A DNA stretch of 64,000 nucleotides. Origin: an uncultured Planctomycetaceae bacterium. GTDB taxonomy: Bacteria; Planctomycetota; Planctomycetia; Pirellulales; Thermoguttaceae. Below, piece after piece: positions 8-53,670 of the stretch (position 1 is its first letter; each line of letters opens with the position of its first letter). The position numbers and the translations under genes were made by a program. The notes below the pieces were generated by a model. The model ran no database searches. It was not told the DNA's origin and saw only the letters and a program-made list of their open reading frames with translations. The stretch lies in contig CAWBLA010000009.1 of the NCBI GenBank assembly GCA_963789525.1, positions 332,999 to 396,998 of the forward strand. The letters are read 5' to 3'.

Positions 8-80
8 GAGGCTGTAGCTCAGTCGGTAGAGCAACGGACTTTTAATCCGTTGGTCCCGGGTTCGAGTCCCGGCAGCCTCA
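8..80 (+). tRNA. tRNA-Lys (anticodon TTT)
   Basis: Cloverleaf read from sequence: acceptor GAGGCTG/CAGCCTC, D-arm GCTC-AGTCGGTA-GAGC, anticodon arm ACGGA-CTTTTAA-TCCGT, T-arm CCGGG-TTCGAGT-CCCGG, discriminator A. CCA is not encoded. Confidence 0.85.
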
Positions 81-184
81 CTGACCGGCCCGCGTGGCTC
101 CTCGCCGCGTGAAAACGCGTGGCCAAAGGTCATGCCGGAGCCTTTCCAGTCGGGCAACTGGCACCGACGGCATAAAGAAAAGAC

Positions 185-3659: not shown

Positions 3660-5351
3660 TCAACCGGAGACGGGGCGCGTGGAAAAGACTCCCGACCCCT
3701 TGTGTGCTTCCTTGTGTGCTTGTGTGTGCCTCCAGGCAAAGACCAGCAGACACATGGCACCGCCCAAGAGCAGCACCAGCGTGCCGGGCTCGGGCGCCGC
3801 CCTGCCCACCGGGCCGGCGGTTACGAAACCGGCGACGTGACCGCCGTACTGGTCACCGAGGAAGCCCAAATCGGAGAGGTTGACTCTCCCATCGTAGTTG
3901 AAGTCGCCCATCGCCCAGGTCGCTCCGGTGGTCAAGCCATAATTATCACCGAGGAAACCGAGGTCCGACAGGTTCACGCTCCCGTCGACGTTCGCGTCGC
4001 CGTAGAGGGTGTATTCCACGGTGATCAACTTGTTGACCGTATCGGCCTTCCAGCCCAAGGTGTTGGCCGTCGTGGCTGTCGAGCTCTGGAACTGGCCGCC
4101 GGCCCAGGCGCCGCCGGCGTAGCTCGCCTTCATCGCCGTGTCGACCGCGGTGGGCGAGGTGCCGCTGTCGGTGTAGTCCAACACCAGCTTGCCGAACTTC
4201 ACGTCCACGCCGGCATTGCTCAAGACCGGCGTCTTGGCGCCAGCCTGCAACACGAGTTTGCCGCCTTCGACGGTCGTCAAGCCGGTGTAGGTGTTGGCGC
4301 CGCTGAGGGTCAAAATACCTGCGCCCACTTTACTAACGGCCAGCACCGCGCTCGCAGAGCCGTCTTTGACAACAGCGTCGAATGAACTGTAGGCGTCGTT
4401 CGTACCAACGATCAACACCGAAGTCGTGCCCGCGGCGTTGTTGACGACCTGCTCAGTTGCCGTGCCGTACAGTCCGCCCACCGACAGATTGTGGCCATTC
4501 AGGTCGAGTGCCGACGCACTGGAGAGATCCACGCTATTCAGTGCGTTCGTGGCCACCAACACTCCGGTACCGTTGGACAGATGCAGATTTGACACCGCAT
4601 CGGTTGCGATCAGACTGAACGTCCGGTTGCCAACGTAAAGGTCATTCGCAGTCAGTGGCCCGCGGTTCAGCACGGTCGGCGATCCGCCATACCAGCCCAA
4701 CCAAAGTGCGTTGGTGTTCACCGCGCGGCCACCCATATCGAGCGTTGAGCCGTTGTCCGTAACATCGAAGCCGCCGGTCAACGCCATGTCGGCGCCTAGC
4801 GTCAGCGTGCTGCCCGAATACACCGCGGCGCTGTCCGTAACGTTCCCCACCGCCACCGTCGTCAGTGCCGAGCCATTATAGAGCCCAACACTGTCCACAG
4901 CATCTGGAGCACCGAAGGTGAAGGAGTTACCGTTATTGACGGTCAAACCATTGCCGGTGAACCCACCGCTCCCTCGCTGCACGATCCCTGTCGCGCCGGG
5001 ACTAAAGCCAATGTACAGGCTGCCGGCGATTGTGAGCTCGGAATTTCCCAAGTCCAACGTCCCGAGGGTGCCGCTGTCGTAACCGACAATAACGGCTGCC
5101 GCACTCTGGTCTTGAGTGAGATTCACGGTCGCCGTGGTAGCGGCCCCGGACGGGTACGTACTGCCGATGAACACGGTGTCCGCGCTGCCCGGAATCGGCG
5201 TGGAGGTCCAAATCGAGGCGTTATTCCAATTGCCACTGCTGATTGTGCCGAGATCGTCGGCCAAGGAAGCCGTTTCTCCAATGGGCACGGCAATTGCGAG
5301 GGACAAGAAAGCCACCGAAGCGACGAAACGAATTTGGTCGTGCTTTTTCAT
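3660..5351 (-). CDS. Secreted PEP-CTERM protein with two dockerin-like repeats and beta-helix-type repeats
   Basis: Signal peptide MKKHDQIRFVASVAFLSLAIAVPIG. C-terminus has two GDANVDGSVNLSDLGFLGDNYG / GDFNYDGRVNLSDLGFLGDQYG repeats, then VPEPGTLVLLLGGAMCLLVFAWR. Intact 564-aa ORF. Confidence 0.75.
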   Translation of the reverse strand: MKKHDQIRFVASVAFLSLAIAVPIGETASLADDLGTISSGNWNNASIWTSTPIPGSADTVFIGSTYPSGAATTATVNLTQDQSAAAVIVGYDSGTLGTLDLGNSELTIAGSLYIGFSPGATGIVQRGSGGFTGNGLTVNNGNSFTFGAPDAVDSVGLYNGSALTTVAVGNVTDSAAVYSGSTLTLGADMALTGGFDVTDNGSTLDMGGRAVNTNALWLGWYGGSPTVLNRGPLTANDLYVGNRTFSLIATDAVSNLHLSNGTGVLVATNALNSVDLSSASALDLNGHNLSVGGLYGTATEQVVNNAAGTTSVLIVGTNDAYSSFDAVVKDGSASAVLAVSKVGAGILTLSGANTYTGLTTVEGGKLVLQAGAKTPVLSNAGVDVKFGKLVLDYTDSGTSPTAVDTAMKASYAGGAWAGGQFQSSTATTANTLGWKADTVNKLITVEYTLYGDANVDGSVNLSDLGFLGDNYGLTTGATWAMGDFNYDGRVNLSDLGFLGDQYGGHVAGFVTAGPVGRAAPEPGTLVLLLGGAMCLLVFAWRHTQAHKEAHKGSGVFSTRPVSG

Positions 5352-5455
5352 AGAGATATGCTCCGTAGTCAAGGCAGGGTCCGAATTAAGACTCCCGCCC
5401 CTTAGTATCCGTCCGACCCCTTACCCCGCCGATCACAGCGATGTTTAATGCATGG

Positions 5456-5737
5456 TCAAAAACTGTCCCGGAAACGTTGCCAGCCACAAAACGCCAAGCC
5501 AAACGTGCCCACGCTCAGCAGAACCAGGGCGGGAGGGTTCAGGCACAGCGGTCGCAGTAACCTCGAAATTATCGCCCCGGTCCGTTCCGGTACTCCCTAC
5601 GGTGCCGCCATCGGCGGAAGTCGTCGAATTATCGGTCAGCCGGAGGTAGACATTCGCTGTGTCGTTGATCGTGGTAAGCGACGAGAGATCAAAGGAAAAG
5701 CCGTACAAGCTACTGCTCGTTGTCGAGTTCCAAGGCG
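5456..5737 (-). pseudogene. C-terminal remnant of a PEP-CTERM protein (no N-terminus or signal peptide)
   Basis: ...NVYLRLTDNSTTSADGGTVGSTGTDRGDNFEVTATAVPEPS. After a 1-nt frame correction it continues ALVLLSVGTFGLAFCGWQRFRDSF-stop, a classic PEP-CTERM anchor. The upstream part is replaced by the 20-bp tandem array. Confidence 0.45.
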
Positions 5738-5780
5738 GGTTTAGAGACTTCCTCCACTCATGGCGGCGCAGGTCGCACGA

Positions 5781-5920
5781 GCGAATCGCCAACGCGAAAT
5801 GCGAATCGCCAACGCGAAATGCGAATCGCCAACGCGAAATGCGAATCGCCAACGCGAAATGCGAATCGCCAACGCGAAATGCGAATCGCCAACGCGAAAT
5901 GCGAATCGCCAACGCGAAAT
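5781..5920. repeat. Perfect tandem repeat: 20-bp unit gcgaatcgccaacgcgaaat, 7 copies
   Basis: Seven identical head-to-tail copies read directly from the sequence. Each unit contains the short palindrome GCGA-A-TCGC. The ORF-track peptides with (FALAIRISRWRFAFRVGDSH)n are translation artefacts of this array. Confidence 0.95.
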
Positions 5921-6831
5921 GATTGTATGCCCGTCGGACAACTGCCAACTATTTATTTCTAAATCGCTGGCGAAGTGTGCGGTCCACGTGCGTACGCGCG
6001 ACCGCCTCTGGGCTGCCCAATAAACGCCCCCAGAAGCCCGCCTCGGCTTTTCAACATGCCGCGAGTGCCAGTTTTACGGCAGGAACGGCTCAGACCGTCT
6101 TTCGGCCGCGTTTCACGCGCCAAAGTGTTGCATGGGCCGGCAAGGGAGGCTGCCGGGACTCGGACCTGGGACCGACGGATTAGCAACCTCCGGCCAATCC
6201 AGGTTCTTTGGAAAAACCGGGGCTCTCGGGCACCACTGGCGCAACAATTGGTCCATGCCGAAATGATCCCGACTTGGACAAGGTCATTGCGGCGTCGTCA
6301 AGCCTGTTCCGATCCAGCCGCCTTCTGAATAAGCTGCGATGCCTGCCCGACGTGGCATCGTTGGGGGTTGGTCGTGCCGATGGAAAAGCGGAGCGTCCGG
6401 TTGCCGTGCAGCCGGGTGTGGCTCAGGTAGATGCAGCCCGAGATGCTCGAGGACAAGAGGCAGGTTCCGGCTGGAGTTGCCATCCTTGGGTGGTACAGTG
6501 CCCCGTCGTGCCGGGCAGTTTCTACCCAGATTTTTTGCCAAATACTTCTGCCAGTTTGTTGCAAGGAGTGCGGAAATTGGTTATGTTAAATTGGTTATGT
6601 TAGCGGTGTAGATCATTAGTCCTGCGGGCACGAGGCAGCGCGTCGACGATCCGTCGCTCTCAGAAACAGTCATCCCAATCGCTGGATGGCACGCGCTGAC
6701 TGGTCTCTCTCCTAAGTCGCCGTTTCGGGTTGCTGTTTCTCGCTGGTGCCGGTCGTGGGCGCGCCGATCGCTCGAACGACGGGGAAACAGTCACACCCTC
6801 TTGCAGCATTTTCGACGAAAGGGCTCGGGCA

Positions 6832-7473
6832 ATGAAGACACGCACTATTGCAGTCGCCGCCGCGTTGGTTCTTTGGGCATCCGTGGGTAAGGCGACGATT
6901 ATCAGCGCGCCGATCGCAGACGACGGCGACGGCGCCATCGTCTGCGACCTCGAGACGACCAACTGGGACGACGCAACCTACACGATGAACATCTACGGCG
7001 AGCAGTTCTCGGCGCCGGGGCATATCGGCAAGGAGTCGCTCGACGCGACGGCGGCGTTCATTACCCCTATCGATGATCCGGATCCGACGGTCACGATGCG
7101 CAACATCATCGACAACGACACCGCGTTCGCGTGGACGGCCTACCACATCAACGTTTACATGGACCAAATCTTTAACTTGTCCGATGCCACGGTGTACATG
7201 CCCGCCACGTCGGAGTCTGGCTGGTCCGGCTCGATTACGGTATCGCCGGCGGCATGGAACGGCAGCCAATACGTCGGGCAAGTGGACTATGTCGCCGGAA
7301 CGCCGATTCCAGTAGGCGGCATGCTCGACTTCAGCTACAAGATGCAGTTCACCGGCACCGTTCACTACTGCCAGGAAATGATCCCCACGCCCGAACCCTC
7401 GACGCTGGTCCTGTTGGGCATCGGCGTCCTTGGGCTGGCGGCCTACGGATGGCGGCGGCGCGATCGAGTCTAG
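6832..7473 (+). CDS. Small secreted PEP-CTERM protein
   Basis: Signal peptide MKTRTIAVAAALVLWASVG. C-terminus PTPEPSTLVLLGIGVLGLAAYGWRRRDRV. Intact 213 codons. Confidence 0.8.
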   Translation: MKTRTIAVAAALVLWASVGKATIISAPIADDGDGAIVCDLETTNWDDATYTMNIYGEQFSAPGHIGKESLDATAAFITPIDDPDPTVTMRNIIDNDTAFAWTAYHINVYMDQIFNLSDATVYMPATSESGWSGSITVSPAAWNGSQYVGQVDYVAGTPIPVGGMLDFSYKMQFTGTVHYCQEMIPTPEPSTLVLLGIGVLGLAAYGWRRRDRV

Positions 7474-7500
7474 GCGATTTATCCTGTATTGTTCGTTAAC

Positions 7501-7535
7501 GAGCCCCACCGATTGACCGGCGGGGCTCTCTTCTT
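7501..7535 (+). terminator. Candidate rho-independent terminator
   Basis: GAGCCCCACC-gattgacc-GGCGGGGCTC (10-bp stem, one mismatch) followed by tctcttctt, 28 bp after the PEP-CTERM gene stop. Confidence 0.4.
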
Positions 7536-8155
7536 GGTGCGCAAGTGCGTGCGATCCGCGTTCAGCACAGACGTGGGTCCCTCCCGGCTGCCACGGCCGG
7601 CGACCCGCACTCCCTTCTCCACCGACGAGTGGGTTTGCGTCGACACATAAGCTACCAGCGAGCCGTCCGCGCCGGTCTGGTTGCCCTGGCCGTTGGTTGC
7701 TTGTTGCCCAGGCTTCGACTGCGCTGCAGCAAGCCATGGGCCGCGTCGAGTTCGCCTATCTCGTTCTGGGCCGGCAGTGCGCGGTTGCCGGGTTCGAGCC
7801 ACCGGCATCGGAGACGATCTGCGTCCAGATTCGTCAAATCCGCAGTGCCGGCGCCTTGCGCGAGCTGTAAGCGGTTGCCTCCGAAACGTTCGGAGGCGTC
7901 AGTCCGCCCGATCGTCGGCGCGTAGGACAATCTCTTACAACCGCGAGAGGTTGTTGCTGCGTCGCGATTCCCGAAAATCCCGATTTTCTTTTCGGCCATA
8001 TCGGTCAAAGTTAGATTAGCCGCGGCCGCTCCTAATGGCGCCGTGCGGGTAAGGTTCTTCCCGATTTGTGACGAAGGAGAATGTTTCAATGGCAACGGTC
8101 GAAACAGGGCGCGCACGAACCGTTGGGCGAAGTCGGGCAGCAAACGGCTCGCGCG

Positions 8156-8898
8156 AAGATTTTGCAGGGGAAGAAGGCATTGGTGACGGGTGGGTCGCGG
8201 GAATTGGGCGGGCAACCGTTTTGGCGCTGGCGGAAGCAGGGGCCGATGTCGCGATCAACTATCAGCGCTGCGCCGAGGCCGCCGAGACCGTCTGCCACGA
8301 CGCCCTCGAACTCGGCGTGCAGGCCCGAACGCATCAGGCCAACGTCTCGAACGAGGATGAGGCCAAACAAATGGTCGAAGACATCCTCGGCGATTGGGGG
8401 GCGATCGATATCTTGGTGAATAATGCCGGCATCACGCGCGACAAGTCGTTCCTCAAGATGTCGCGAACTGCGTGGGACGAAGTGTTGGGAGTGAATCTCA
8501 ACGGGGTCTTCAACATCACGAGGGCCGTTCTGCCGGGAATGGTCGAGGCGGGCTGGGGACGGGTCGTCAATATGGCTTCAATCGTCGGCCAGACCGGCAA
8601 CTTCGGCCAGGCCAATTACGCGGTGACCAAAGGGGGGCTCATCGCGTTGACAATGACGCTGGCCCGCGAGGTCGCGCGCAAAGGCGTGACGGTCAATGCG
8701 GTCGCGCCGGGGTTTATCGAAACGGACATGCTCAAGGAGATTCCCGAGGCCGGACTGGCCGCAATCAAGGCCATGACCCCGGTCGGCCGCCTGGGCAAGC
8801 CCGACGAGGTGGCGGCCGCGGTGGTGTTTTTGGCGAGTCCCCGGGCTAGCTTCGTTACCGGCCAAGTGATTCCGGTTAACGGCGGCATGTACATGTGA
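8156..8898 (+). CDS. fabG: Short-chain dehydrogenase/reductase, 3-oxoacyl-[ACP] reductase FabG-like
   Basis: GKKALVTGGSRGIGRA (after correcting a -1 slip in a G-run near 8212), NNAG, the SDR catalytic tetrad (...YAVTKGG...), and C-terminus PVNGGMYM. Start codon uncertain (possibly TTG at 8162). Confidence 0.7.
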
Positions 8899-42856: not shown

Positions 42857-43831
42857 ATGGCATCCATCAAGCGAATCCTGGTCACCGGCGGCGCCGGTTT
42901 TCTTGGCTCCCACCTCTGCCAGCGGCTTCTGGATCGGGGTCACGACGTCATCTGCCTGGACAACTTCTTCACCAGCCAGAAATCGAACGTCGCCCACCTG
43001 CTGCCGCAGGCAAACTTCGAACTGGTTCGCCACGACATCACGCTGCCGATCTTTTTGGAAGTCGACGAGGTCTACAACCTCGCGTGCCCCGCAGCGCCCG
43101 GCCACTACCAGTTCAATCCCATCAAGACCATGAAGACGTCGGTGCTCGGAATCATCAATGTCCTGGGCATGGCCAAACGCTGCCGCGCCAAAGTGCTGCA
43201 AGCCTCGACCAGCGAAGTCTACGGCGATCCCGACGTCCATCCCCAGCCGGAAACTTACCGCGGCGTCGTCAATCCGATCGGGCCGCGCGCCTGCTACGAC
43301 GAAGGCAAGCGGGCGGCCGAAACGCTGATGATGGATTACCACCGGCAGAACCGGGTGAACGTCCGGGTCGCGCGGATTTTCAACACCTACGGCCCCGGCA
43401 TGCACCCATTCGACGGCCGTGTCGTGTCCAACTTCATTCGCCAGGCCTTGGCTGGCCAGGACATCACCATCTTCGGTGACGGATCGCAGACGCGATCGTT
43501 CTGCTACCGTGACGATCTGGTCGAGGGGCTGATCCGCATGATGGACGGTCCGGATGACCTCGTGGGGCCCGTCAACCTCGGCAATCCCGAAGAGTTCACC
43601 ATTCTGGACCTTGCCAGATTGGTGCTGGAACTTACCGGCTCGCGTTCGAAGCTGGTCTATCACGACCTGCCGACCGACGACCCGACGCAGCGTCAGCCGG
43701 ACATCACGCTGGCCAAGAAACGTCTCGATTGGTACCCGACCGTCCCGATTCGCGACGGTCTCGTCAAGACAATCGAGTGGTTTCGCTCCATCGATCTCGA
43801 TCACTACCGCCCGCCGACGCCAAATTATTGA
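42857..43831 (+). CDS. UDP-glucuronate decarboxylase (UDP-xylose synthase)
   Basis: [41 protein letters not shown]...[11 protein letters not shown]...NTYGP... Intact 324 aa. Extended-SDR fold with the characteristic YDEGKR. Confidence 0.85.
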
Positions 43832-43851
43832 CGGGATAGGCGACCGGGAAG

Positions 43852-43899
43852 CGGAGCCGACCGGGATCGAACCGGCAGCCTGCTGGTTGCAAAGCAGTG
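43852..43899 (-). repeat. Partial degenerate copy of the tRNA-Ala 3' part (acceptor 3' strand, T-arm, variable arm, anticodon-arm-like hairpin)
   Basis: ggagccgaccgggatcgaaccggca is identical (25 nt) to the tRNA-Ala at 45846, and similarity continues for ~20 more nt. Same orientation. No 5' half. Confidence 0.65.
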
Positions 43900-44199
43900 A
43901 ATCTGGCGACGTAAGTACGGATAACAGAGAACTGGCGTTGTCGCCTTCTGCCGCTTGTACCGCTGCTTGTACCAGCGAAGCCAAAAACGCAAACGCCGAA
44001 CTCCTCGAAGCCGCTTCGCTCGGCACGTCGCCACAAGCCGCCGATCCCAGGAACGCGGGCCAGGGCGGACTTGAACGAGAAGGAGCGGTGGGTAGACCAG
44101 CCGGGGGTCTTCCGGGGAGAATGAAGCCCTCAGGCAAGGGCACACGACGCGACGGCCCGCGCAGAGGGCCCCTCAATAGCCGTTGCCTTCGTGCGGTAC

Positions 44200-45030
44200 T
44201 CAACCCAGGCCGAAGCCGCGTTTGCGATAAACGACGAAAACCAAACCGACCACTCCGATCAGCGCCAGCAACAAAGTCCCCGGCTCGGGCACAGGCGAGA
44301 AGGCTAGTCCGACAAGGTTCGGGCTGTTGAGGCCGTACGGGCCTACGTCAGTCATGACGCCGTTGGAAGTGTTCACCGTATAGAGGTGAGCCGTATTGCT
44401 ATTCGCGAGAAACATGGTGTTGTCTTCCGGGCGCGAGGCGATATCGTAGCTAAAGCTAAGCGGTAGGGTGGCGATCGAGGCTCCGTTGCCAGTGGCGGTG
44501 CTGATCGAGATCAACTGGTCGGTGGTGGCGGCAACGCCAAAAAGGCTACCAGTTTGATCGAAAGCTAGGGCGTAGACGTCGTCGAACAGGATGCGACCGA
44601 TGAACGTGCAACTGCCGGACGCCGGGTCGATTCGGTAAAGGGCGTCAAACGGGGCGCTATAACCCACGGACGTGTTGCCGTAGAGGTTGCCCGAGACAGG
44701 GTCGAAAGCGATTGAGACCATCCTGTCCGGGCTGTTCAAATTCGCGGCAAGTGCGGCCGCACCCGTGCTGGGATCGATCGAGAGGAGTTGATTGGTGTCG
44801 ATCTTCATGCCCCAAAGAGTATAGGAGCCCGGGCGGGTATCGCTGGTGAGGTCGCCCACATTGTCGAAACCCGTCGCCCCAATCACCGACGCGGCGCCAG
44901 TCGATTGGTCCATGAGGTGGAGCGGCGTGGCGGCGGGGTACGCGACGGAATACAACTCGCTCGCTTGCGCCTGCGGCAGCCCTAAGAGGGCCACAATGCT
45001 CCCGACAGCAAAAGAGATACGGCTGTTCAT
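44200..45030 (-). CDS. PEP-CTERM protein with five ~45-aa beta-propeller-like repeats
   Basis: Signal peptide MNSRISFAVGSIVALLGLPQAQA. Repeats L..IDPSTGAA..IG x5. C-terminus VPEPGTLLLALIGVVGLVFVVYRKR. Confidence 0.75.
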   Translation of the reverse strand: MNSRISFAVGSIVALLGLPQAQASELYSVAYPAATPLHLMDQSTGAASVIGATGFDNVGDLTSDTRPGSYTLWGMKIDTNQLLSIDPSTGAAALAANLNSPDRMVSIAFDPVSGNLYGNTSVGYSAPFDALYRIDPASGSCTFIGRILFDDVYALAFDQTGSLFGVAATTDQLISISTATGNGASIATLPLSFSYDIASRPEDNTMFLANSNTAHLYTVNTSNGVMTDVGPYGLNSPNLVGLAFSPVPEPGTLLLALIGVVGLVFVVYRKRGFGLG

Positions 45031-45845
45031 GATTAAGCCTCCCCCGAAATGGCCGTGAACAGTGGACGGCGACGGCGGGCTTACGGCCCAAAGCCCACCC
45101 CTCGCACGCAACAGAGAATCGTTAGCTGGGACGTGGAGCCAAACAAGTGACAGCGAAAAAGAATTCGCCCGGTTGCTTCGCGTCCGGTTGAAACGTTACC
45201 GGTTTCCAACGTCCCGAAAGTTCTACCGGATTGGGAGTTACGGACTACGGGCGGCGCCACCGGCGGCGCAAGTCGGGAAAACCCTTAGCCGCTGCCGAGA
45301 ACGTCCTAAGGCCGGAATCTGGGAGATGCTGACGTTTTGGGCGGCAGGACCGGGGAGATTTCTGTACCTGGATTCGGCAGCATGATAAGCACGGCCCGCG
45401 GTGGCCAACCGGCGACAGGAACCAGCCTTCAAGCCCGATCGGACGCGCGAGAGGGGAGACGCCTCTCGCCCACCAACTGCACTCCCTGTTCCTCGTCGTA
45501 AGCACACTGTCGTAAGCACAGTAGTTGCTTGTCGGCGATATTGTGGCGGCAGCGGCGCTCCGAACTGGCGTGCCTCGCACTCGACCAAAAACCGCGTTTA
45601 CGCTTCCCTACTCTCGGGTGAACCGTACCGGCCCGAGATATCGGACGCGGCCGCGATCACGGACGTAGGCCAATCCGCGGGCCTTGTGGAGACACTACTT
45701 CGGGCGCGAGCGCGAACGGCGGGCATGGTGTGGACCTCCGTCAAAGGGCGCTGGTACGTGCATGCGCTTTTCCTCGACTTGCGGGCCGCGCTGCCGACCG
45801 CCGGCAGGTAACCAAATCCAAGTTTCGGCAAGGGGTTACGTTTAG

Positions 45846-45918
45846 TGGAGCCGACCGGGATCGAACCGGCAACCTCCTGGATGCAAACCAGGCGCTCTCC
45901 CAACTGAGCTACGGCCCC
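45846..45918 (-). tRNA. tRNA-Ala (anticodon TGC)
   Basis: Sense strand GGGGCCGTAGCTCAGTTGGGAGAGCGCCTGGTTTGCATCCAGGAGGTTGCCGGTTCGATCCCGGTCGGCTCCA. G3:U70 Ala identity pair present. 73 nt. CCA not encoded. Confidence 0.9.
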
Positions 45919-46030
45919 GACGAAATGTCGACTATACCGGGACGTTTGCTGCCTGAAAAGCCCTGTCGCGACCGACTCGTCACTGCGGTTGGTTGCGACA
46001 TGGCTGAACACGGCGGCCGATTGCGATCTG

Positions 46031-49000
46031 TCATGCCTTGCTGCCTCGGACCGACGCAAGGTGTTGGCGGAGAAACGTCTTCAAATCGCCCCGGGCCAGG
46101 TCGTCGGTGCTGCGAAACTGGAGCCGGATGACATCGCGGTCGGGACGCTGGCCGTTGATCTCCGGGGTGTGGCCCAGCCCGGTGATCTGTCCCAAGGCGA
46201 AATGCCCTTTCGGGCCGGCCAAGTGCAGGTAGACGGCATCGGGCTTCTTCGTCTGCACGGCCGCCCAGGGCTCGTGCTGATCGGGCAAATGGACCGGCAC
46301 CACTTGCTTGTTGTTCCATAGGAACTGCCCTTGCGGCGCCGTCTCGGCCAGCAGTTCCATGAGATCCTCCAAAACCTCTACGTCCCAGTTGATCTTCTTG
46401 CCGAGCGAAAAACCACGGCGGGCAAAATGCCACGTCCGTCCAAGTTGCTTCCAGGGCTGGAGAATGTCCGACCGCTCCTGCAGCTTCTCGCGAAACCTGG
46501 CGAAGCCGGCCACGGCACGATCGACGAACTCCCAAAACTCGTTGCGGTTGACCTCTTCGTAGCTGTGCACCCGCAACTCGACCTCTTGCCACGGGCCGCG
46601 GAGGTTCTTGCATCGTACGCGAGGCTCGGTCCCGTACAGCGGCAGCTCGGGCACGTCGTTCAGTGGTCTCAACTGCAATTTGTCGACTAGCTCGTCGCGC
46701 TGGAACGTATTCCGCGCCGTGCGAAACTTCATCTTCAACAGCCACTCCTCACCCGTGATGGCGTGGAAGAACCAACCGTCCGACTTCTTAGCGGCTCGAA
46801 TTTCCACGACGCTTCGCGAGTTCCAATCGGTTTCGGCAAACAAGTTCGGGCCGGAGCGGTTGCGGCCTTGCCCGCTCGATGAAATAGTTCCGACCCCTTT
46901 TTCGATGCGGTCGACTACGTCGAGGAGGATGCGGCCGTCCCAGCGACAGGGATTGCCGGTCCGGCCGACGCGGTCGACCGTGTGCCAGCGCCGACCGTCG
47001 GCCTCCCACGGCATGCGAGCATTGTGGCCGACCTCGGCAATGTCGCGATCGCCGAGCCGGGCAGCCGCCTCGGCAGCGAAATCGAACGGTTTGCGCTCGA
47101 CCAGCGGCCCGGCGGCCAGTATCGGCGCCAGGGCTCTGGCGGTGTGGGACGTCAACGCCGCAGCACCCGGCACAAGTGCCGGGGCTAAACGACGCGGCGT
47201 TTTGCCGTGATTCCGTCCCCCGCCCCCCGTCTCCAATTTCTCGACTATCTCCTCCGGCGTGCCTGTGGCCACGACATAGCCGCCCTCGTCCCCGGCCTCG
47301 GGGCCCAGATCAATCACCCAGTCGGCGGTCTTGATCACGTCAAGATTGTGTTCGATCACTACGACGGTATTGCCGAGATCGACCAAGCGGTTGAGCACGT
47401 CGAGCAGCTTGGCCAGGTCGTCGAAGTGCAGCCCTGTGGTCGGCTCGTCCAGCACGTAGAGCGTCTGTCCCGTGTCGGGTCGGGCGAGTTCAGCGGCCAG
47501 CTTCACGCGCTGCGCCTCGCCGCCAGAAAGCGTCGGCGCCGGCTGGCCGAGCGTCAAGTAGTCAAGGCCGACATCGCAGAGCATTTCCAACGGCCGCCGG
47601 ATCTTTGGGATGTTCTCGAACAGCCGCACTGCCTGGGCACAGGACATGTCGAGGACATCGGCGATCGAGCGGCCGTGGTAACAGACCGCCAATGTTTCGG
47701 GATTGTAGCGGCGGCCGTGGCACGTGTCGCACTCGACCCACACGTCGGGCAAAAAGTGCATCTCGATGCAAAGCTGCCCGTTGCCCTCGCACTTTTCGCA
47801 GCGCCCGCCCGGCACGTTGAAGCTGAACCGCCGCGGCGTATAGCCGCGGAGCTTGGACTCGGGGAGCTGCGCGTAGAGCGAGCGTATCAGGTCGAACACC
47901 CCGGTAAACGTGGCCGGGTTCGACGTGGGCGTCTGTCCGAGCGGTTGTTGATCGACGCGGATCACCTTGTTGACTCGTTCGACGCCGCGAATCGCGTCGT
48001 GGGCGCCGGGAAAGGTTTTCGCGCGGTGGAGCGTTCGGGCCAGCGAGGCGAACAGCACGTCCTCGACCAGTGAGCTCTTGCCGCTGCCGCTGACGCCGGT
48101 GACGACGGTCAGCGTGCCTAGCGGAATGCGCACGTTGATATTCTTCAGGTTGTGGTGCCGGGCGCCGACGATCTCCAGCCAGCCTGTGGGAAGAGGGGAG
48201 GGGAGAGAGGAGAGAGGAGGGGGACCAGCCGCTCTTGTTCTTCGCCCCCTCTGCTTTCCCCTTTCTCCGCTCTCCCCCTTCTGCACTTCTTTCCTGGCCG
48301 CTGCATCCGCCGGTTGGTCGGCACGGGAATCGCCTTTTTGCCGGAGAGATACGGCCCGGTGACCGAACCGCGGCGCTTGGCGACTTGTGCCGGGCGCCTT
48401 GAGCCACGATCTGTCCGCCGCCAGAGCCGGCCGCGGGACCAAAGTCGAGCAGTTGATCGGCGTTGGCCACCACCTCACGATCGTGCTCGACGACCAGCAG
48501 TGTATTGCCCAGGTCGCGGAGCTTTCCAAGCGCCTGCAACAGCCGGCCATTGTCGCGTGGGTGCAGACCAATGGTGGGCTCGTCGAGCACGTAGAGCACT
48601 CCGCATAGGCCGCTACCGACTTGGGCCGCCAGTCGAATCCGCTGCATCTCGCCGCCGGACAGCGACGGCGCGGGCCGCGCGAGCGTGAGATACTCCAGCC
48701 CGACGTCAACGAGAAATTGCAGCCGGTTGCGAATTTCGCGCACGATCTCGCCGGCGATTTTTCGTTCGGAGGTCGATGGCCGCCAATTGCGAAAATCGTC
48801 CACGAGCCGACCGAGCGGCAAGCGGCAAAGCTCGTCGATCGTTCGCGGGCGCCCATGCCAAGGCGAACGGCCGCCGCGTCGTCGCGCAGCCGACTACCAC
48901 CACAAACAGAACACTCAACCTCGTCGACCAGGTGTTCGAGCTTCGTGCGGAAGCCCGGCGTAAGCCGGCTGGCTTCCTCCAAGGCAGGATAAAGTCCCTT

Positions 49001-50169
49001 GTACTGGAAACGGAACGAGGCCGAATGCGTCCCGTCCCCCGCCCCCGCCCCCCGTTCCCTCCCACATCGAACCATTGCTCGCCGGCGCCGTGGAAGATCA
49101 CGCGGCGATACCGACCGCTCAGTTGGTCGAAGGGCACGTCGATTGGCACGCCGGCGCCGCGCGAAAGAGCTTCAAGCATCGGTGCAAAAAGGCGACCGCC
49201 CGCGCTGGGCCACAGCGCGATGGCGCCCTCGGAGAGCGTGCGCTTCGGATCGCGCAACAGCGCGGCCGGATTCGTACCGGTTTGGATGCCGAGCCCTTCG
49301 CAGGCCGGGCACCATCCCAAGGCGCTATTGAACGAGAAATTGTGCGGCGAAAGCGGCTCGAAGCTCCGCCCGCAACGGTCGCAAACGAAGTGCTGGCTGT
49401 GCGTCTCGACGGGCCATTGCGGCTCAGGCATGTCGTCGCGCGGGTACACGGCCCTGAGCACTCCGCGGCCCAGCGCCAGCGCGTTCTCCACGCTGCCGGC
49501 GACGCGCGACCGGGAATCGCCGCGAATCGCCACGCGATCGATCACCACGTCGACGTCGTGCTTGCGGCGCCGGTCGATTTCTGGCGGCGCATCGACGGAA
49601 TACGTCCGCCCGTCGACCCGAATGCGCACGTAGCCGGACGCCCGGGTTTCGGCCCACAGGGTCTCATAGCGCTCGCCAACGCGGATTTCCAGCGGCGCCG
49701 TGAGAAACAGCTTGGTGCCGGCCGGATGGGCCATGATCTTCGCAATGATTTCATCGGCCGACTGGCTGCCGATACGCACGTCGCACGCCGGGCAATACGG
49801 CTGGCCGAGGCGCGACATGAGAATCCGCAGATAGTCGTAGATCTCCGTCACGGTGCCGACGGTGCTTCGCGGCGTGTGGCCCGAGTGCTTCTGCTCGATC
49901 GCCACGGCCGGCGACAAGCCCTCGATATGACCGACCTTCGGCTTCTGCATCTGGCCGACGAACTGCCGGGCGTAGGCGCTTAGGCTTTCGACGTACCGCC
50001 GCTGCCCTTCGGCATAGATCGTGTCCACAGCCAGCGATGTCTTGCCCGAGCCGCTGGGCCCGCAGCAGACGGTGAGTTGGTCGCGGGGAATGTCGACGTC
50101 GATCCCCTTGAGGTTGTGCTGTCGAGCCCCGCGAACCTTGATGAAGCGGGTGCGCGGAGTGCGGGACGG
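46031..50169 (-). CDS. UvrA paralog 2: both ATP-binding cassette (ABC) modules with both zinc fingers, a disordered linker insertion, and a ~350-aa C-terminal extension of unknown function
   Basis: ABC module 1 ([17 protein letters not shown]...[34 protein letters not shown]...CPACDV...CDRCGRSF...CPACEGLG...[14 protein letters not shown]...[14 protein letters not shown]) and ABC module 2 ([12 protein letters not shown]...[11 protein letters not shown]...CEKCEGNG...[10 protein letters not shown]...[15 protein letters not shown]...[14 protein letters not shown]) lie in different frames. The extension ...[29 protein letters not shown]...[18 protein letters not shown]...-stop is in-frame and non-repetitive. 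No stop or start codon separates it from uvrA-1 upstream. Confidence 0.7.
48186..48300. repeat. Low-complexity purine tract followed by a pyrimidine tract (mirror-like) inside the uvrA-2 inter-module linker
   Basis: gaagaggggaggggagagaggagagaggaggggga ... ccccctctgctttcccctttctccgctctcccccttctgcacttctttcc. On the coding strand this encodes an E/K/G/A-rich then an S/P/L-rich segment (...[27 protein letters not shown]...). Confidence 0.7.
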
Positions 50170-53100
50170 GAGGCTGGTTGCTTCAGCGGCGGCCGCACCG
50201 TGTTGGTGCGTTTCATGCGACCCGTCCGCGCGGAGCACTTTGCGCAGCACATCGCCGGTGTGCGATACGAATGGACGAGCGTTGGCTGCCGAGGCACCCG
50301 GCACGAGTGCCGGGGCTAAACGAGTCTTTCGGGGTTTCGGGATTTGGGGATTTGGGGATTTGATTTCGAGATTCGGGACTGACGCTTTGTGCCCATCCTG
50401 CTTCCCATTCCCCTTCCCACGCCCTTCATCCCCCGCCCCTCGTCCCCTGACAATCTCCTCCGGCGTGCCGGCGGCAACGACGTATCCGCCTGCCTCGCCA
50501 CCCTCGGGCCCCAGGTCGATAATCCAGTCGGCCGTTTTGACGACCTCGGTGTTGTGCTCGACAACCAGCACCGTGTTGCCGGCGTCGACAAAGGCGTGCA
50601 GTACCTTGAGCAGGAGTTGGATGTCGGCAAAGTGCAGGCCGGTGGTCGGCTCATCCAAGACGTAGAGCGTTCGTCCCGTGCTCTTCTTGACCAGCTCGCG
50701 TGCCAGTTTGACCCGCTGGGCCTCGCCGCCGGAAAGCGTGGGCGAGGGCTGGCCGAGCTTCATGTAGTCGAGCCCCACGTCGTGCAGCGTCTTCAGCTTA
50801 TGATGGATGGCCGGGATGTTCTCGAAGTGCCGCAGCGCCTCCTGGATGTCCATTTCCAACACGTCGGCGATCGACTTGCCCTTGTAGCGGATTTGCAGCG
50901 TCTCGCGATTGAAGCGGCGGCCCTCGCACACCGGGCAGGTCACCCAAACGTCAGCCAGGAAGTCCATCTCCAGCTTGTTCGAGCCGTTGCCCTCGCAGGC
51001 TTCGCAACGGCCGCCGCCGACGTTGAAGCTGAACCGGCCCGGCTTGTAGCCCCGCGCTTTTGCATCGGGCAACAGCGTGTAAAGACGGCGAATCTCATCG
51101 AACACCTTGATGTACGTCGCCGGATTCGAACGGGGCGTGCGGCCGATCGGCGACTGGTCGATGGCGATCATCTTGTCGAGATGCTCGAGGCCGTCGATCC
51201 GCTCGTGTGCGCCGGGATTGCCGATGCCGCCGTTGAGATCGCGCCGCAGCGCCTCGACCAGGATGTCGCTGGCCAACGAACTCTTGCCCGAACCCGAAAC
51301 GCCGGTAACGCAGACGAATACACCGAGTGGAATCTCGACGTCGACATTTTTGAGGTTGTTGTGCGTGGCGCCGCGGACGACGAGTCGGGCGTCGCCGACC
51401 GGCCGCCGCCGGGCGGGAATTTCAATCCGCCGTTGGCCTGAAAGGTATTGCCCGGTGAGGCTCTTGGGCTCGGCCATCAGCCGGTCGACGGGGCCGCTCG
51501 CTACGACGTGCCCGCCGCGGACGCCGGGGCCGGGACCAAAATCGACGATGTGGTCGGCGGCCCGCATCGTATCCTCGTCGTGTTCGACCACGACGACCGT
51601 GTTGCCCTGGTCGCGAAGCCGGGCGAGCGTCGCCAGCAGGCGGTCGTTGTCGCGCGGATGCAGTCCGATCGACGGTTCATCGAGGATGTACAGCACGCCC
51701 ACCAATCCGCAGCCGATCTGGCCGGCCAACCGGATGCGCTGCATCTCGCCGCCGGAAAGCGTTGGCGCCGTCCGGTCGAGCGTGAGATATTCCAGCCCGA
51801 CGTTCTTGAGAAATCCGAGCCGCCCGCGAATCTCCTTGAGCACGTCGTCGGCGATCTTCTCGCCGGTGGCGTCAAGCGCCAGGGCACAAAAGAACTCTGC
51901 GGCTTCGGATACCGCCAAGGCGCAGACCTCGGGCAGCGTGTGCTCGGGTCGGTCGCTGAAGCGGGGCGCAAGGCTCGTCACTGTCACGGCCCGGGCCTGT
52001 GGGTTCAGCCGGGCGCCGTGGCAGCGGCCGCAATCGAGAATCCGCATGTACTTCTCAAGCTGGCGGCGCTGGAGCCGGCTCTTCGTGGTGCGGTATTGCG
52101 AAAGCAGCTTGGGGATGATGCCTTCGTACTTGCCGCCCCACTTGTAGCCCGACGGACCGCTGCGCCATGTGAACGTAATATGCGAGTCGCCTGTCCCCCA
52201 GAGCAGGGCCTGCTGGAGCCGAGGATCGAGCTCTTCCCACGCCGTTTCCAAAACGGTGCCGCCGGGCAAGCCGTGCTCGCGTTCGAGCATTGCCGCGACG
52301 CCGCGGTAAATGTGCCGCCGCCATCGCCCCATGTCGCGCCACGTGCCGACCAATCGAACGCAGCCCTGTTGAAACGACCGGCTTGGATCAGGTACTAACC
52401 GCTCCGGATCGAACGTGTAGATCGCGCCCAGGCCGTCGCATTCGGGACACATCCCTTGCGGGCTGTTGAAGCTGAACAACTGGGGGCTGGGCGGCTCAAA
52501 GCTCAGGTTGCAGTGAGTGCAGGCATAGTGGGCCGAGAGAGAGAGTGAGGGTTCGAGGGACGAGGGGTCGGGGGCGGGTGCCTCGCTACCGCTCTCATGC
52601 CCGTCGTCTTCCTCGCCTTCCATGGCTGCGACAAGATTGCCTTCGCCGAGCCGCAACGCCAACTCCACGGCTTCGGCCAGACGCGGACGGATCTTGGGAC
52701 CGACCACTAACCGGTCGACAACGACCTCGATGGCGTGCCGCATCTGGCGGTCCAGCCGCAGGTTGTCGCTAAGCCGGACCACGCGACCATCGACCCGCGC
52801 GCGGGCGAAGCCCTGTTTGAGCAGATCGTCAAACAGGTCGCGATACTCGCCCTTCTGCCCGCGGACCAGTGGCGCCAAGACCGAAAATCGTGTCCCGGCC
52901 GGCAGCGCCAAAATCTGCTCAATAATCTGTTCGCGCGTCTGCGCGGTGATCGGGCGGCCGCATTGCGGGCAGTGCCCCTTGCCGACCCGCGCGAACAACA
53001 CCCGCAAGTAATCGTAAATCTCGGTGATCGTGCCGACGGTGGAGCGCGGGCTTTGCCCTCCCGACTTCTGCGAGATCGAGATAGCCGGATTCAGCCCGCT

Positions 53101-53334
53101 GATGAGATCGACGTCGGGCTTGGGCATCTGGCCGAGAAACTGCCGGGCGAAGCTGGAGAGGCTCTGCACATAGCGGCGCTGTCCCTCGGCGTAAAGCGTG
53201 TCGAAGGCCAGCGAGCTCTTGCCCGACCCGCTCACGCCCGTAAAACAGATCAGGCGATTCCGCGGCAGCACCAAATCGACATCGCGAAGGTTATGTTCCC
53301 GCGCACCGCGAATCAGAATGTCGGAAGCAGGCAT
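50170..53334 (-). CDS. uvrA: Excinuclease ABC subunit A (class I)
   Basis: MPASDILIRGAREHNLRDVDL...[23 protein letters not shown]..., both zinc fingers, UvrB-binding and insertion domains, two LSGGE signatures, C-terminus ...GTPEEIV...SHTGDVLRKVL. Intact. The 3' boundary is set at the start of the second UvrA module because no stop codon intervenes. Confidence 0.85.
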
Positions 53335-53670
53335 GAGCGGGCGGGGTGTGAAGTACGTGGACGGATCAAAACACGTAATTGTATCAGATTGCGGCGAGTG
53401 ACGGCGGGGGCGGTTCGTTCCATGCGAATGCACCATGCGGGGCGGATCGAACGTAGCGAGCCGCGTCAATTGGGTCTTTCGAAGCAGCTTCTCAGTGTCG
53501 AATAGCCGTCATTCTTTACGCATACCTCCCAGTTGTCCGTATCCCGGAAAACCTGGGCGTTAGAGTTAATGCCACCGGAAAAATCGGACGATCCGTTAGA
53601 AGCGTGACTATCGTTACAGGTAGCAAAGTCGCTCCATGCGGCACGCTTGATGTTTCTTTAGGGGGGAATC

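What the first reader, a model, noticed from the sequence alone, without database searches (positions are those of the whole stretch)
43852..45918. tRNA-Ala plus a 48-nt partial copy 2 kb downstream, bracketing a lone PEP-CTERM repeat-protein gene
This is the second att-like signature in the window. The copy (43852..43899) shares a 25-nt perfect core and a further ~20 similar nt with the 3' two-thirds of tRNA-Ala(TGC) (45846..45918), in the same orientation, and lacks a 5' half. The 2-kb bracketed segment carries only a PEP-CTERM beta-propeller-like gene and no integrase. It looks like a minimal or decayed integrative islet that delivered a surface-protein gene.
Basis: seen in the sequence. 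Interest (0 to 1): 0.55.

Follow-up and report, generated by a model that had tools for sequence, protein, structure and literature searches.

The report
Decayed mobile-element scar at tRNA-Ala
The partial tRNA-Ala copy is the leftover right end of a mobile DNA element that once inserted into the tRNA-Ala gene and later lost its integrase, which is a common kind of genomic fossil and here encloses one intact surface-protein gene.

Summary
tRNA-Ala(TGC) lies on the minus strand at 45846..45918. A 48-nt copy of its 3' part lies at 43852..43899, in the same orientation and downstream of the tRNA's 3' end. The two share a 25-nt exact core and 41 of 48 positions.

The new evidence is that the ~97 nt on the inner side of the fragment (43900..43996) are homologous to the matching end of a 6-kb element in metagenome contig L094. 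The alignment is ungapped and at the same distance from the core. That element sits at an identical tRNA-Ala and carries a tyrosine integrase, a NikA-like mobilisation gene, a displaced 3' tRNA fragment, and tandem GGTRCAAG repeats on both arms. The window keeps only the two repeats of the fragment-side arm. It has no integrase and no repeats on the tRNA side.

The fragment is therefore a fossil attR of an integrative element, and the islet is decayed, not minimal. It is unresolved whether the element delivered the PEP-CTERM beta-propeller gene. Homologous gene-plus-leader cassettes lie in other contexts in relatives, once beside a broken integrase of the same broad family. No empty site could be found, because both flanks are synteny breakpoints in every available relative. 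This is a known kind of feature and of low interest.

The parts
45846..45918 (-). Intact tRNA-Ala(TGC). This is the regenerated integration target (attL core side).
   Evidence: ARAGORN. Rfam RF00005, 67.2 bits, E 1.7e-13. G3:U70 read from the sequence.
45931..45959 (-). Sigma-70-like promoter match just upstream of the tRNA (TTTTCA-17-TATAGT).
   Evidence: Consensus scan only. Function is not shown.
45352..45845 (.). 494-nt spacer of unknown origin between the tRNA 3' end and the PEP-CTERM cassette. It has no integrase remnant and no GGTRCAAG arm repeats. It contains an exact tandem 12-mer, GTCGTAAGCACA x2, at 45495..45520.
   Evidence: No Pfam or PHROGs hits for its ORFs. No similarity to the L094 integrase or attL arm. 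No arm-motif match on this side. Tandem 12-mer.
45031..45351 (-). Conserved non-coding leader/promoter region that travels with the PEP-CTERM gene.
   Evidence: blastn homology with L082 (85.6% over 44198..45351) and L081 (76.7% over 44214..45302) covers the CDS plus this upstream stretch and stops there. Alignment A3. No Rfam hit.
44200..45030 (-). Intact gene for a 276-aa secreted beta-propeller protein with a C-terminal PEP-CTERM sorting signal. A GGAGG ribosome-binding site lies 7 nt before the ATG.
   Evidence: Pfam DUF4394, DUF6923 and PEP-CTERM. NCBIfam PEP-CTERM models. 263 homologues, the best 77% identical over the full length. AlphaFold pLDDT 90.7 with YWTD/TolB-type propeller matches.
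44126..44141 (-). Terminator-like hairpin about 60 nt after the PEP-CTERM stop codon.
   Evidence: Consensus scan. The number found is no more than expected in shuffles, so this is weak.
43900..43996 (-). Remnant of the element's P arm, the island-side flank of attR. It is homologous to the P arm of the L094 element.
   Evidence: blastn 84% over 45 nt, E 1e-7, at the same distance from the core. Alignment A2. Ungapped in-register local score 37 against 8.05 +/- 1.3 in 2000 shuffles, maximum 16.
43950..43973 (-). Two tandem 12-nt repeats (GGTACAAGC, 12-nt spacing). These are candidate arm-type integrase binding sites.
   Evidence: D11. L094 has the same pair at the same position, plus three copies on its tRNA-side arm: 5 copies against 0.5 expected, 0 of 200 shuffles.
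43852..43899 (-). Displaced 3' fragment of tRNA-Ala (attR core), with a 25-nt exact core at 43853..43877.
   Evidence: Not detected as a tRNA. No stable fold, z = -0.17.
42857..43831 (+). Flanking chromosomal gene, a UDP-glucuronate decarboxylase-type SDR. Its stop codon is 20 nt from the fragment. It is the last gene of a conserved Der-UDG-response regulator-epimerase block.
   Evidence: NCBIfam. Homologues named UDP-glucuronate decarboxylase. Synteny in L083-L086, L101 and L102 ends at its stop codon.
46031..53469 (-). Flanking chromosomal gene on the tRNA side, a giant double UvrA-like gene read in three frames.
   Evidence: ORFs. Synteny with L087-L089 runs up to window ~46086 and then stops.

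Best explanation
The feature is the fossil of a site-specific integrative element at tRNA-Ala(TGC). A tyrosine integrase of the lambda-Int type, which binds both core and arm sites, recombined the element's attP with the tRNA gene. attP carries a copy of the tRNA's 3' part. Integration regenerated a complete tRNA at one end (45846..45918). It left the displaced 3' fragment, joined to the element's P arm, at the other end (43852..43996). Later deletion or replacement removed the integrase gene and the tRNA-side (P') arm. What remains between the two att cores is 1.95 kb that can no longer move by itself. That interval now holds one intact, probably expressed PEP-CTERM beta-propeller gene with its own conserved 320-nt leader. 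Shown here: the repeat geometry, the P-arm homology to an integrase-bearing element, the conserved arm repeats, and the absence of an integrase. Inferred: that the present tRNA and the fragment are products of the same integration event, the order of decay steps, and the crossover position. The crossover was either in the anticodon loop, as in L094, followed by decay of the fragment, or within the 25-nt T-arm core. Whether the PEP-CTERM gene was cargo of the element or arrived later is unresolved, at roughly even odds.
For: (1) The direct-repeat geometry has the correct polarity and a 25-nt exact core. (2) A metagenome scan with the tRNA's 42-nt 3' part gave 11 loci. In L094 a full tRNA-Ala at 7091..7164 is followed by a Phage_integrase ORF reading toward it (7102..8811, E 2.7e-12) and a NikA-like ORF. 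About 6 kb downstream lies a 3' fragment that ARAGORN does not call. That fragment, plus the ~40-50 nt that follow it, matches the region that directly follows intact tRNA-Ala genes in L091, L093, L099 and L100. The fragment side therefore keeps the original 3' flank. (3) The window's island-side flank, 43900..43996, is homologous to L094's. blastn gives E 1e-7. The alignment is ungapped and in register, with score 37 against 8.05 +/- 1.3 and 0 of 2000 shuffles reaching it. The P arms of two other elements, L098 and L096, score only 7-9. (4) The tandem GGTRCAAG pair is conserved at the same position. In L094 the motif is enriched tenfold and is present on both arms, three copies on one and two on the other. 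(5) Mismatches between fragment and tRNA are unevenly placed: 0 of 25 in the core against 6 of 22 beside it (counts; the Fisher test printed there used a 0/25 vs 5/21 split and gave p = 0.015). This fits a core plus a diverged arm. (6) Orphan 3' fragments of this same tRNA-Ala also occur in L095/L098 and L096, so this tRNA is a commonly used attB. [quoted passage not shown]
Against: No empty site was found. In six relatives the conserved block ends at the epimerase stop codon, with four different downstream contexts. In three others synteny ends at the UvrA-like stop. None has a tRNA nearby. The pairing of this tRNA with this fragment is therefore inferred from geometry only. Nothing on the tRNA side resembles the L094 element. 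Base composition of the islet (GC 0.61) is indistinguishable from the window (0.63). The P-arm homology rests on one reference element seen in two sister samples, L094 and L092. The source appears to be a metagenome-assembled genome with frameshifted genes, so an assembly error at this junction cannot be formally excluded.
Confidence: 0.75

Rival explanations
1. The scar is real but the PEP-CTERM gene is not its cargo. Under this reading the att-bracketed interval is a plasticity zone, and a chromosomal PEP-CTERM cassette (gene plus leader) was moved into it by a later rearrangement.
For: In L082 the closest cassette homologue (85.6% nt) lies 150 nt from, and divergent to, homologues of window 3787..6027. 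Those are PEP-CTERM/PATR repeat-protein genes, which in the window are 39 kb away and inverted. Homology to L082 and L081 stops exactly at the cassette edges, 44198 and ~45351. The L094 element carries no such gene. The islet's GC equals that of the host. The epimerase 3' end is a rearrangement hotspot in relatives.
Against: The gene lies wholly inside the att interval. L082 has a frameshifted integrase, 24-58% identical to the L094 integrase, 1.3 kb from its cassette. L081 has an N-terminal integrase remnant 7 kb away. No repeats or transposase mark the cassette edges.
Confidence: 0.4
2. The fragment and P arm are the end of an element that had integrated into a different tRNA-Ala locus. Under this reading, their position 2 kb from the present tRNA-Ala results from a chromosomal rearrangement and not from one integration event.
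For: Both flanks of the 2.2-kb segment 43844..46085 are synteny breakpoints relative to all relatives, in which the epimerase block and the UvrA block lie on different contigs. Elsewhere in the window a tRNA-Lys 3' fragment (6145..6184) lies inverted relative to tRNA-Lys (8..81), which shows that att-like fragments here have been rearranged.
Against: Orientation, polarity and the 25-nt identity all fit a single event. A chance juxtaposition in the correct polarity within 2 kb is less parsimonious.
Confidence: 0.1
3. The islet is a still-functional minimal, cis-mobilizable element (CIME). Under this reading it can be excised and moved by an integrase encoded elsewhere in the genome.
For: Both cores are intact over 25 nt. 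The P arm keeps both tandem repeats. CIMEs are an established outcome of ICE/IME decay (PMC5704250).
Against: The tRNA side has no GGTRCAAG repeats, even with 3 mismatches allowed, while L094 has three there. The fragment's anticodon-stem-like core sites are altered. No integrase of this family is present in the 64-kb window.
Confidence: 0.06
4. The copy is a decayed tRNA pseudogene from a local duplication, or a member of a dispersed tRNA-derived repeat family, unrelated to integration.
For: Weak similarity continues over the 5' half (12 of 26; 77% over 71 nt overall).
Against: The sequences beyond the two copies share no similarity, so this is not a tandem duplication. The window has only two copies, and the fragment-specific sequence has none in the viral or metagenome collections. 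The residual similarity to the 5' half is shared with L094's P arm, so it belongs to the element arm. Mismatches are not evenly spread.
Confidence: 0.03

Closest known systems
Genomic islands integrated in tRNA genes by tyrosine integrases (the Islander signature; PMC4383910)
   Same: An intact, regenerated tRNA gene and a displaced 3' fragment form direct repeats that mark the two ends. The fragment starts near the anticodon arm and runs to the acceptor end. The island lies downstream of the tRNA's 3' end.
   Different: There is no integrase gene in the interval, so it would fail Islander's filter for putatively active islands. The interval is only 1.95 kb, and the tRNA-side arm is missing.
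The integrative mobilizable element in metagenome contig L094 (Ga0123335_1006698; right end also in L092)
   Same: The target is the same: the tRNA-Ala(TGC) reconstructed from tRNA plus fragment is identical to the window's. The P arm is homologous, with the same tandem GGTRCAAG pair at the same distance from the core.
   Different: L094 is complete at about 5.9 kb. It has a 569-codon integrase ORF, a NikA-like ORF, three P'-arm repeats, and its own divergent T-arm in the regenerated tRNA, with crossover in the anticodon stem-loop. The window has none of these and carries a PEP-CTERM gene instead.
CIME (cis-mobilizable element: a decayed ICE/IME that keeps attL and attR; PMC5704250)
   Same: It derives from an integrative element by loss of the integration and transfer genes, and it is bracketed by att cores.
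   Different: A CIME retains functional attL and attR. Here the attL arm sites are absent and the attR core is mutated, so trans-mobilisation is unlikely.

Membership tests
tRNA-integrated genomic island (tyrosine-integrase type) | An intact target tRNA plus a displaced 3' fragment of it, in direct orientation, on the 3' side of the tRNA | tested here: met
   25-nt exact core, 41 of 48 identical, same strand, and the fragment lies 1.95 kb downstream of the tRNA's 3' end.
tRNA-integrated genomic island (tyrosine-integrase type) | A tyrosine integrase gene inside the interval | tested here: not met
   Pfam, PHROGs, tblastn with the L094 integrase and tblastx found none. There is also none in the whole 64-kb window at E<0.2, apart from the antisense-tRNA artefact.
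tRNA-integrated genomic island (tyrosine-integrase type) | The island-side flank of the fragment derives from an element's attP arm | tested here: met
   Homology of 43900..43996 to the P arm of the integrase-bearing L094 element, in register, with 0 of 2000 shuffles reaching the score.
tRNA-integrated genomic island (tyrosine-integrase type) | Arm-type repeats on both sides of the core | tested here: not met
   Two copies on the fragment side (43954..43973) and none on the tRNA side. L094 has 2 + 3.
tRNA-integrated genomic island (tyrosine-integrase type) | Presence/absence polymorphism (an empty site in related genomes) | tested here: inconclusive
   Nine relatives at about 77-83% nt identity share the flanking blocks, but none has tRNA-Ala next to them. 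The window's own genome and closer relatives could not be retrieved.
CIME (cis-mobilizable element) | Lost its integrase and transfer genes but retains functional attL and attR | tested here: inconclusive
   Loss of the genes is met. attR is partly kept. attL lacks arm repeats. Function cannot be tested with these tools.
Dispersed tRNA-derived repeat family | Many copies of the tRNA-like unit scattered in the genome or in other genomes | tested here: not met
   The window has only the tRNA and this one copy. The fragment-specific 24-29-mers have 0 matches in viral contigs and metagenome contigs. The 102 fetched loci have none.
PEP-CTERM/exosortase substrate proteins (the enclosed gene) | An N-terminal signal peptide, and a C-terminal PEP motif followed by a transmembrane helix and a basic tail | tested here: met
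   Pfam PF07589, E 9.9e-6, above its cutoff. The sequence ends ...VPEPGTLLLALIGVVGLVFVVYRKRGFGLG. The model has an N-terminal helix and a helix at residues 250-271. An exosortase gene in the genome was not looked for.

The most novel reading that the evidence does not exclude
DUF4394/PEP-CTERM beta-propeller cassettes (the gene plus a conserved ~320-nt leader) are cargo that tRNA-Ala-specific integrative mobilizable elements of the L094 family shuttle between Planctomycetota genomes. Under this reading the window shows such a delivery after the vehicle decayed. The remnant might also still be mobilizable in trans.
Probability: 0.15. Interest if true: 0.4.

Novelty: new member of a known kind. 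Interest (0 to 1): 0.2.

Why it matters
The practical value is for annotation. It explains an orphan tRNA-like fragment and marks a 2-kb stretch next to tRNA-Ala as a former integration site. It also defines att features (core, P arm, GGTRCAAG arm repeats) of an apparently undescribed family of small integrase elements that use tRNA-Ala(TGC) in what are probably Planctomycetota-like hosts. If the PEP-CTERM gene was cargo, it would be an example of horizontal spread of exosortase-sorted surface proteins in this phylum. This changes no concept. Decayed islands and CIME-like remnants at tRNA genes are well known.

Tried and rejected
(1) Exact look-up of the window's own proteins found nothing on record. 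The source contig could not be fetched, although a 100%-identical epimerase exists on a 581-kb contig.

(2) I searched for an empty site through the epimerase. The 80 genome loci were all <=84% identical, and the 17 scanned for tRNAs have none beside the epimerase. The best protein hits gave L083-L086, L101 and L102, and none has tRNA-Ala there either.

(3) I searched for an empty site through the UvrA-like C-terminus. L087-L089 have no tRNA.

(4) I looked for integrase pseudogene remnants in the two non-coding stretches. Pfam, PHROGs, tblastn and tblastx found nothing credible. A 43-aa alignment of the plus-strand ORF 45401..45811 to the integrase HALRHTF box has E = 20 and the wrong spacing to the tRNA, so I rejected it as noise.

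(5) I tested whether the fragment is part of a structured RNA or a tRNA-like 3' element of the PEP-CTERM transcript. The fold z-score is -0.17 and there is no Rfam hit.

(6) I scanned viral contigs for the core, the fragment and the P-arm block. All gave 0 hits.

(7) A simple inversion model linking the L082 arrangement (window 6027 joined to 45351) with the two tRNA fragments does not restore two proper att pairs, so I dropped it.

(8) I looked for a covarying RNA structure in the conserved PEP-CTERM leader. Three sequences are uninformative (covariation term +1.05).

(9) A second set of arm-like repeats, GTCGTAAGCACA x2 at 45495..45520, has no further copies near the fragment, so there is no alternative att set.
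Full report
**Observation**

ARAGORN finds two tRNAs in the window: tRNA-Lys(TTT) at 8..81 (+) and tRNA-Ala(TGC) at 45845..45918 (-). Rfam confirms the latter at 45846..45918 with 67 bits. The 25-mer GGAGCCGACCGGGATCGAACCGGCA occurs exactly twice, at 43853..43877 and 45847..45871. None of 100 shuffles reached two matches, even with three mismatches allowed.

Over 43852..43899 against 45846..45893, 41 of 48 positions match. The mismatches are the discriminator base and six positions in the variable-loop/anticodon-arm part. The T-arm/acceptor core has none. The copy's anticodon stem has two broken pairs, read from the sequence. Neither ARAGORN nor Rfam (E<=10) sees it as a tRNA, and the region has no unusual fold (z = -0.17). 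The would-be 5' half matches at only 12 of 26 positions.

On the minus strand the order is full tRNA, then 1.95 kb, then the 3' fragment. This is the polarity that integration into the 3' part of a tRNA gene produces.

**Anatomy**

These features are listed right to left, which is 5'->3' on the minus strand.
- A promoter-like match lies at 45959..45931.
- The tRNA follows it.
- Next is a 494-nt stretch with no recognisable gene (45845..45352).
- A 320-nt non-coding leader follows (45351..45031).
- The only credible gene is at 45030..44200. It encodes a 276-aa protein with Pfam DUF4394, DUF6923 and PEP-CTERM hits.
- The AlphaFold model of this protein (pLDDT 90.7) is a beta-propeller resembling YWTD/TolB propellers. 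It has an N-terminal helix and a C-terminal helix at residues 250-271.
- A terminator-like hairpin lies at 44141..44126.
- About 300 nt of non-coding DNA comes next, and then the fragment.
- Twenty nucleotides beyond the fragment is the stop codon of a convergent UDP-glucuronate-decarboxylase-type gene (42857..43831).
- On the other side of the tRNA lies a giant, frameshifted double UvrA-like gene.
- GC content of the islet (0.61) does not differ from the window (0.63).

**Relatives and the presence/absence test**

The window's own contig could not be fetched. The best available relatives have about 77-83% nucleotide identity in the flanking genes. Six loci share the block Der - UDG - response regulator - epimerase: L083-L086, L101 and L102. 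In all of them homology ends at, or within ~12 nt of, the epimerase stop codon. What follows differs in four ways, and two of those contexts include PIN/MazE toxin-antitoxin genes.

Three loci (L087-L089) share the UvrA-like gene up to window ~46086 and then diverge. None has any tRNA within the 6-10 kb of flank retrieved. So the 2.2-kb segment 43844..46085 sits between two synteny breakpoints.

**The decisive comparison**

The fragment-specific sequence has no match in the viral or metagenome collections. It is therefore not part of a dispersed repeat family.

A scan of metagenome contigs with the 42-nt 3' part of the window's tRNA gave 11 loci. In five of them, representing three distinct elements, the match is not a tRNA gene but an orphan 3' fragment (L092/L094, L095/L098 and L096).

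L094 is a textbook case.
- A full tRNA-Ala(TGC) lies at 7091..7164.
- It is followed by an ORF with a Phage_integrase domain that reads toward the tRNA (7102..8811, E 2.7e-12).
- A NikA-like mobilisation ORF follows.
- About 5.9 kb downstream there is a 3' fragment.
- The fragment, plus the ~40-50 nt that follow it, matches the sequence that directly follows intact tRNA-Ala genes in L091, L093, L099 and L100.
- The tRNA reconstructed from L094's 5' part and its displaced fragment is identical to the window's tRNA-Ala.

The window's sequence on the island side of its fragment is homologous to the same side of L094. blastn gives 84% over 45 nt, E 1e-7 (window 43951..43995 = L094 12986..13030), at the same distance from the core. 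With the tRNA-like 48 nt excluded, the best local alignment is ungapped and in register. It scores 37 against 8.05 +/- 1.3 (maximum 16) in 2000 shuffles. The corresponding arms of the other two elements score only 7-9.

The alignment (A2) shows a nearly identical block, CGTTTGCGTTTTYGGCTTCGCTGGTRCAAG, and a tandem pair of GGTRCAAG spaced 12 nt apart. In L094 this octamer occurs five times against 0.5 expected, and 0 of 200 shuffles reach that count. Two copies precede the fragment, and three copies lie 120-150 nt beyond the tRNA. All are in one orientation. This is the layout of arm-type binding sites of lambda-type integrases; that reading is my inference from general knowledge. The window has the two fragment-side copies (43954..43973) and none on the tRNA side, even with three mismatches allowed.

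The weak resemblance of the window's fragment flank to the tRNA's 5' half is shared with L094's arm. It even includes positions where both differ from the tRNA. It is therefore a property of the element arm and not a sign of a duplicated tRNA gene.

**Interpretation**

The fragment with its adjacent ~97 nt is a fossil attR, made of P arm plus core, from an integrative element related to L094's. The intact tRNA is the regenerated target. [quoted passage not shown]

The integrase and the P' arm are missing. No remnant of either was found by Pfam, PHROGs, tblastn or tblastx. The islet is therefore decayed, not a minimal functional element. It resembles a CIME, a decayed element that keeps its att sites (PMC5704250), but it lacks the attL arm sites, so mobilisation in trans is unlikely.

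The mismatch pattern between fragment and tRNA fits two readings: a crossover in the 25-nt core, or an anticodon-loop crossover as in L094 followed by neutral decay of the fragment. I cannot tell which.

**Was the PEP-CTERM gene delivered by the element?**

This is unresolved. The gene and its 320-nt leader form a unit of homology. L082 matches 44198..45351 at 85.6% and L081 matches 44214..45302 at 76.7%. In both, homology stops at the unit's edges.

Evidence against cargo status:
- In L082 the unit is 150 nt from, and divergent to, homologues of window 3787..6027. Those are PEP-CTERM/PATR repeat-protein genes, which in the window are 39 kb away and inverted. This looks like a chromosomal neighbourhood that was later broken.
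- L094 carries no such gene.

Evidence for cargo status:
- L082 has a frameshifted integrase 24-58% identical to L094's, 1.3 kb from the unit.
- L081 has an N-terminal integrase remnant about 7 kb away.

I put cargo against later arrival at about even odds.

**Alternatives considered**

- A local duplication or tRNA pseudogene is disfavoured. The sequences beyond the copies share nothing, and the flank homology points to an element arm.
- A dispersed repeat family was tested and not found.
- A juxtaposition produced by rearrangement cannot be excluded, because both flanks are breakpoints and because an inverted tRNA-Lys fragment exists elsewhere in the window. It is less parsimonious than a single event.
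- Mis-assembly cannot be formally excluded, because the source looks like a metagenome-assembled genome with frameshifts.

**Verdict**

The att interpretation is strengthened by an independent homology. The claim that the element delivered a surface-protein gene is not demonstrated. The feature is a new example of a well-known kind, a decayed tRNA-integrated element. Its modest added value is that it points to a small, apparently undescribed family of integrase elements that target tRNA-Ala(TGC). Interest is low.

Noticed in passing
window 6145..6184 (-) and 8..81 (+): A 3' fragment of tRNA-Lys(TTT), running from the anticodon loop to the acceptor end, lies 6 kb from the intact tRNA-Lys but in inverted orientation. 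Its T-arm/acceptor 26-mer has 3 mismatches. It cannot be a simple attL/attR pair, which suggests a rearranged or orphaned integration scar. Its flank matched nothing in the fetched loci.
   Followed up: partly
window 3787..6027 and 44198..45351; L082 5219..10831: In metagenome contig L082 the homologues of these two window segments lie within 150 nt of each other. In the window they are 39 kb apart and inverted. So the window lineage (or L082) has a breakpoint in the intergenic region between the PEP-CTERM/PATR repeat-protein genes and the beta-propeller PEP-CTERM gene.
   Followed up: partly
window 45031..45351 (-): The ~320-nt non-coding region upstream of the PEP-CTERM gene is as conserved as the coding sequence in L082 and L081. 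It has several near-invariant blocks and a conserved hairpin before the RBS. It may be a regulatory leader or promoter region of this gene family. There is no Rfam match, and three sequences are too few for covariation.
   Followed up: partly
window 46031..53469 (-): A giant gene made of two UvrA-like units plus a C-terminal extension is read in three different frames in the window (ORFs 48706..53469, 47562..48821 and 46031..49075). This indicates frameshifts, either a pseudogene or long-read assembly errors. Relatives L087-L089 are also split into several called genes.
   Followed up: no
window 5761..5941: A perfect tandem array of a 20-nt unit (GCGAATCGCCAACGCGAAAT) lies at the 5' end of, or just upstream of, the small ORF 5445..5948. 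The reported copies overlap, and I estimate about 8 units. L082 has roughly one unit at the homologous place.
   Followed up: no
window 43832..43851 and relatives L083-L086, L101, L102: The 3' end of the epimerase gene is a recurrent synteny breakpoint. Six relatives show four different downstream contexts, and two of those contexts carry PIN/MazE toxin-antitoxin genes. This suggests a hotspot for insertions.
   Followed up: partly
window 45495..45520: An exact tandem 12-mer, GTCGTAAGCACA x2 with 14-nt spacing, lies in the unassigned 494-nt stretch next to the tRNA. The window has no other copies, and its function is unknown.
   Followed up: partly
L094 7102..7164: The integrase ORF of the reference element runs, on the opposite strand, through the P' arm repeats and most of the tRNA gene before reaching a stop. 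Either the true C-terminus is earlier, or attP overlaps the 3' end of int, as described for some phages.
   Followed up: no
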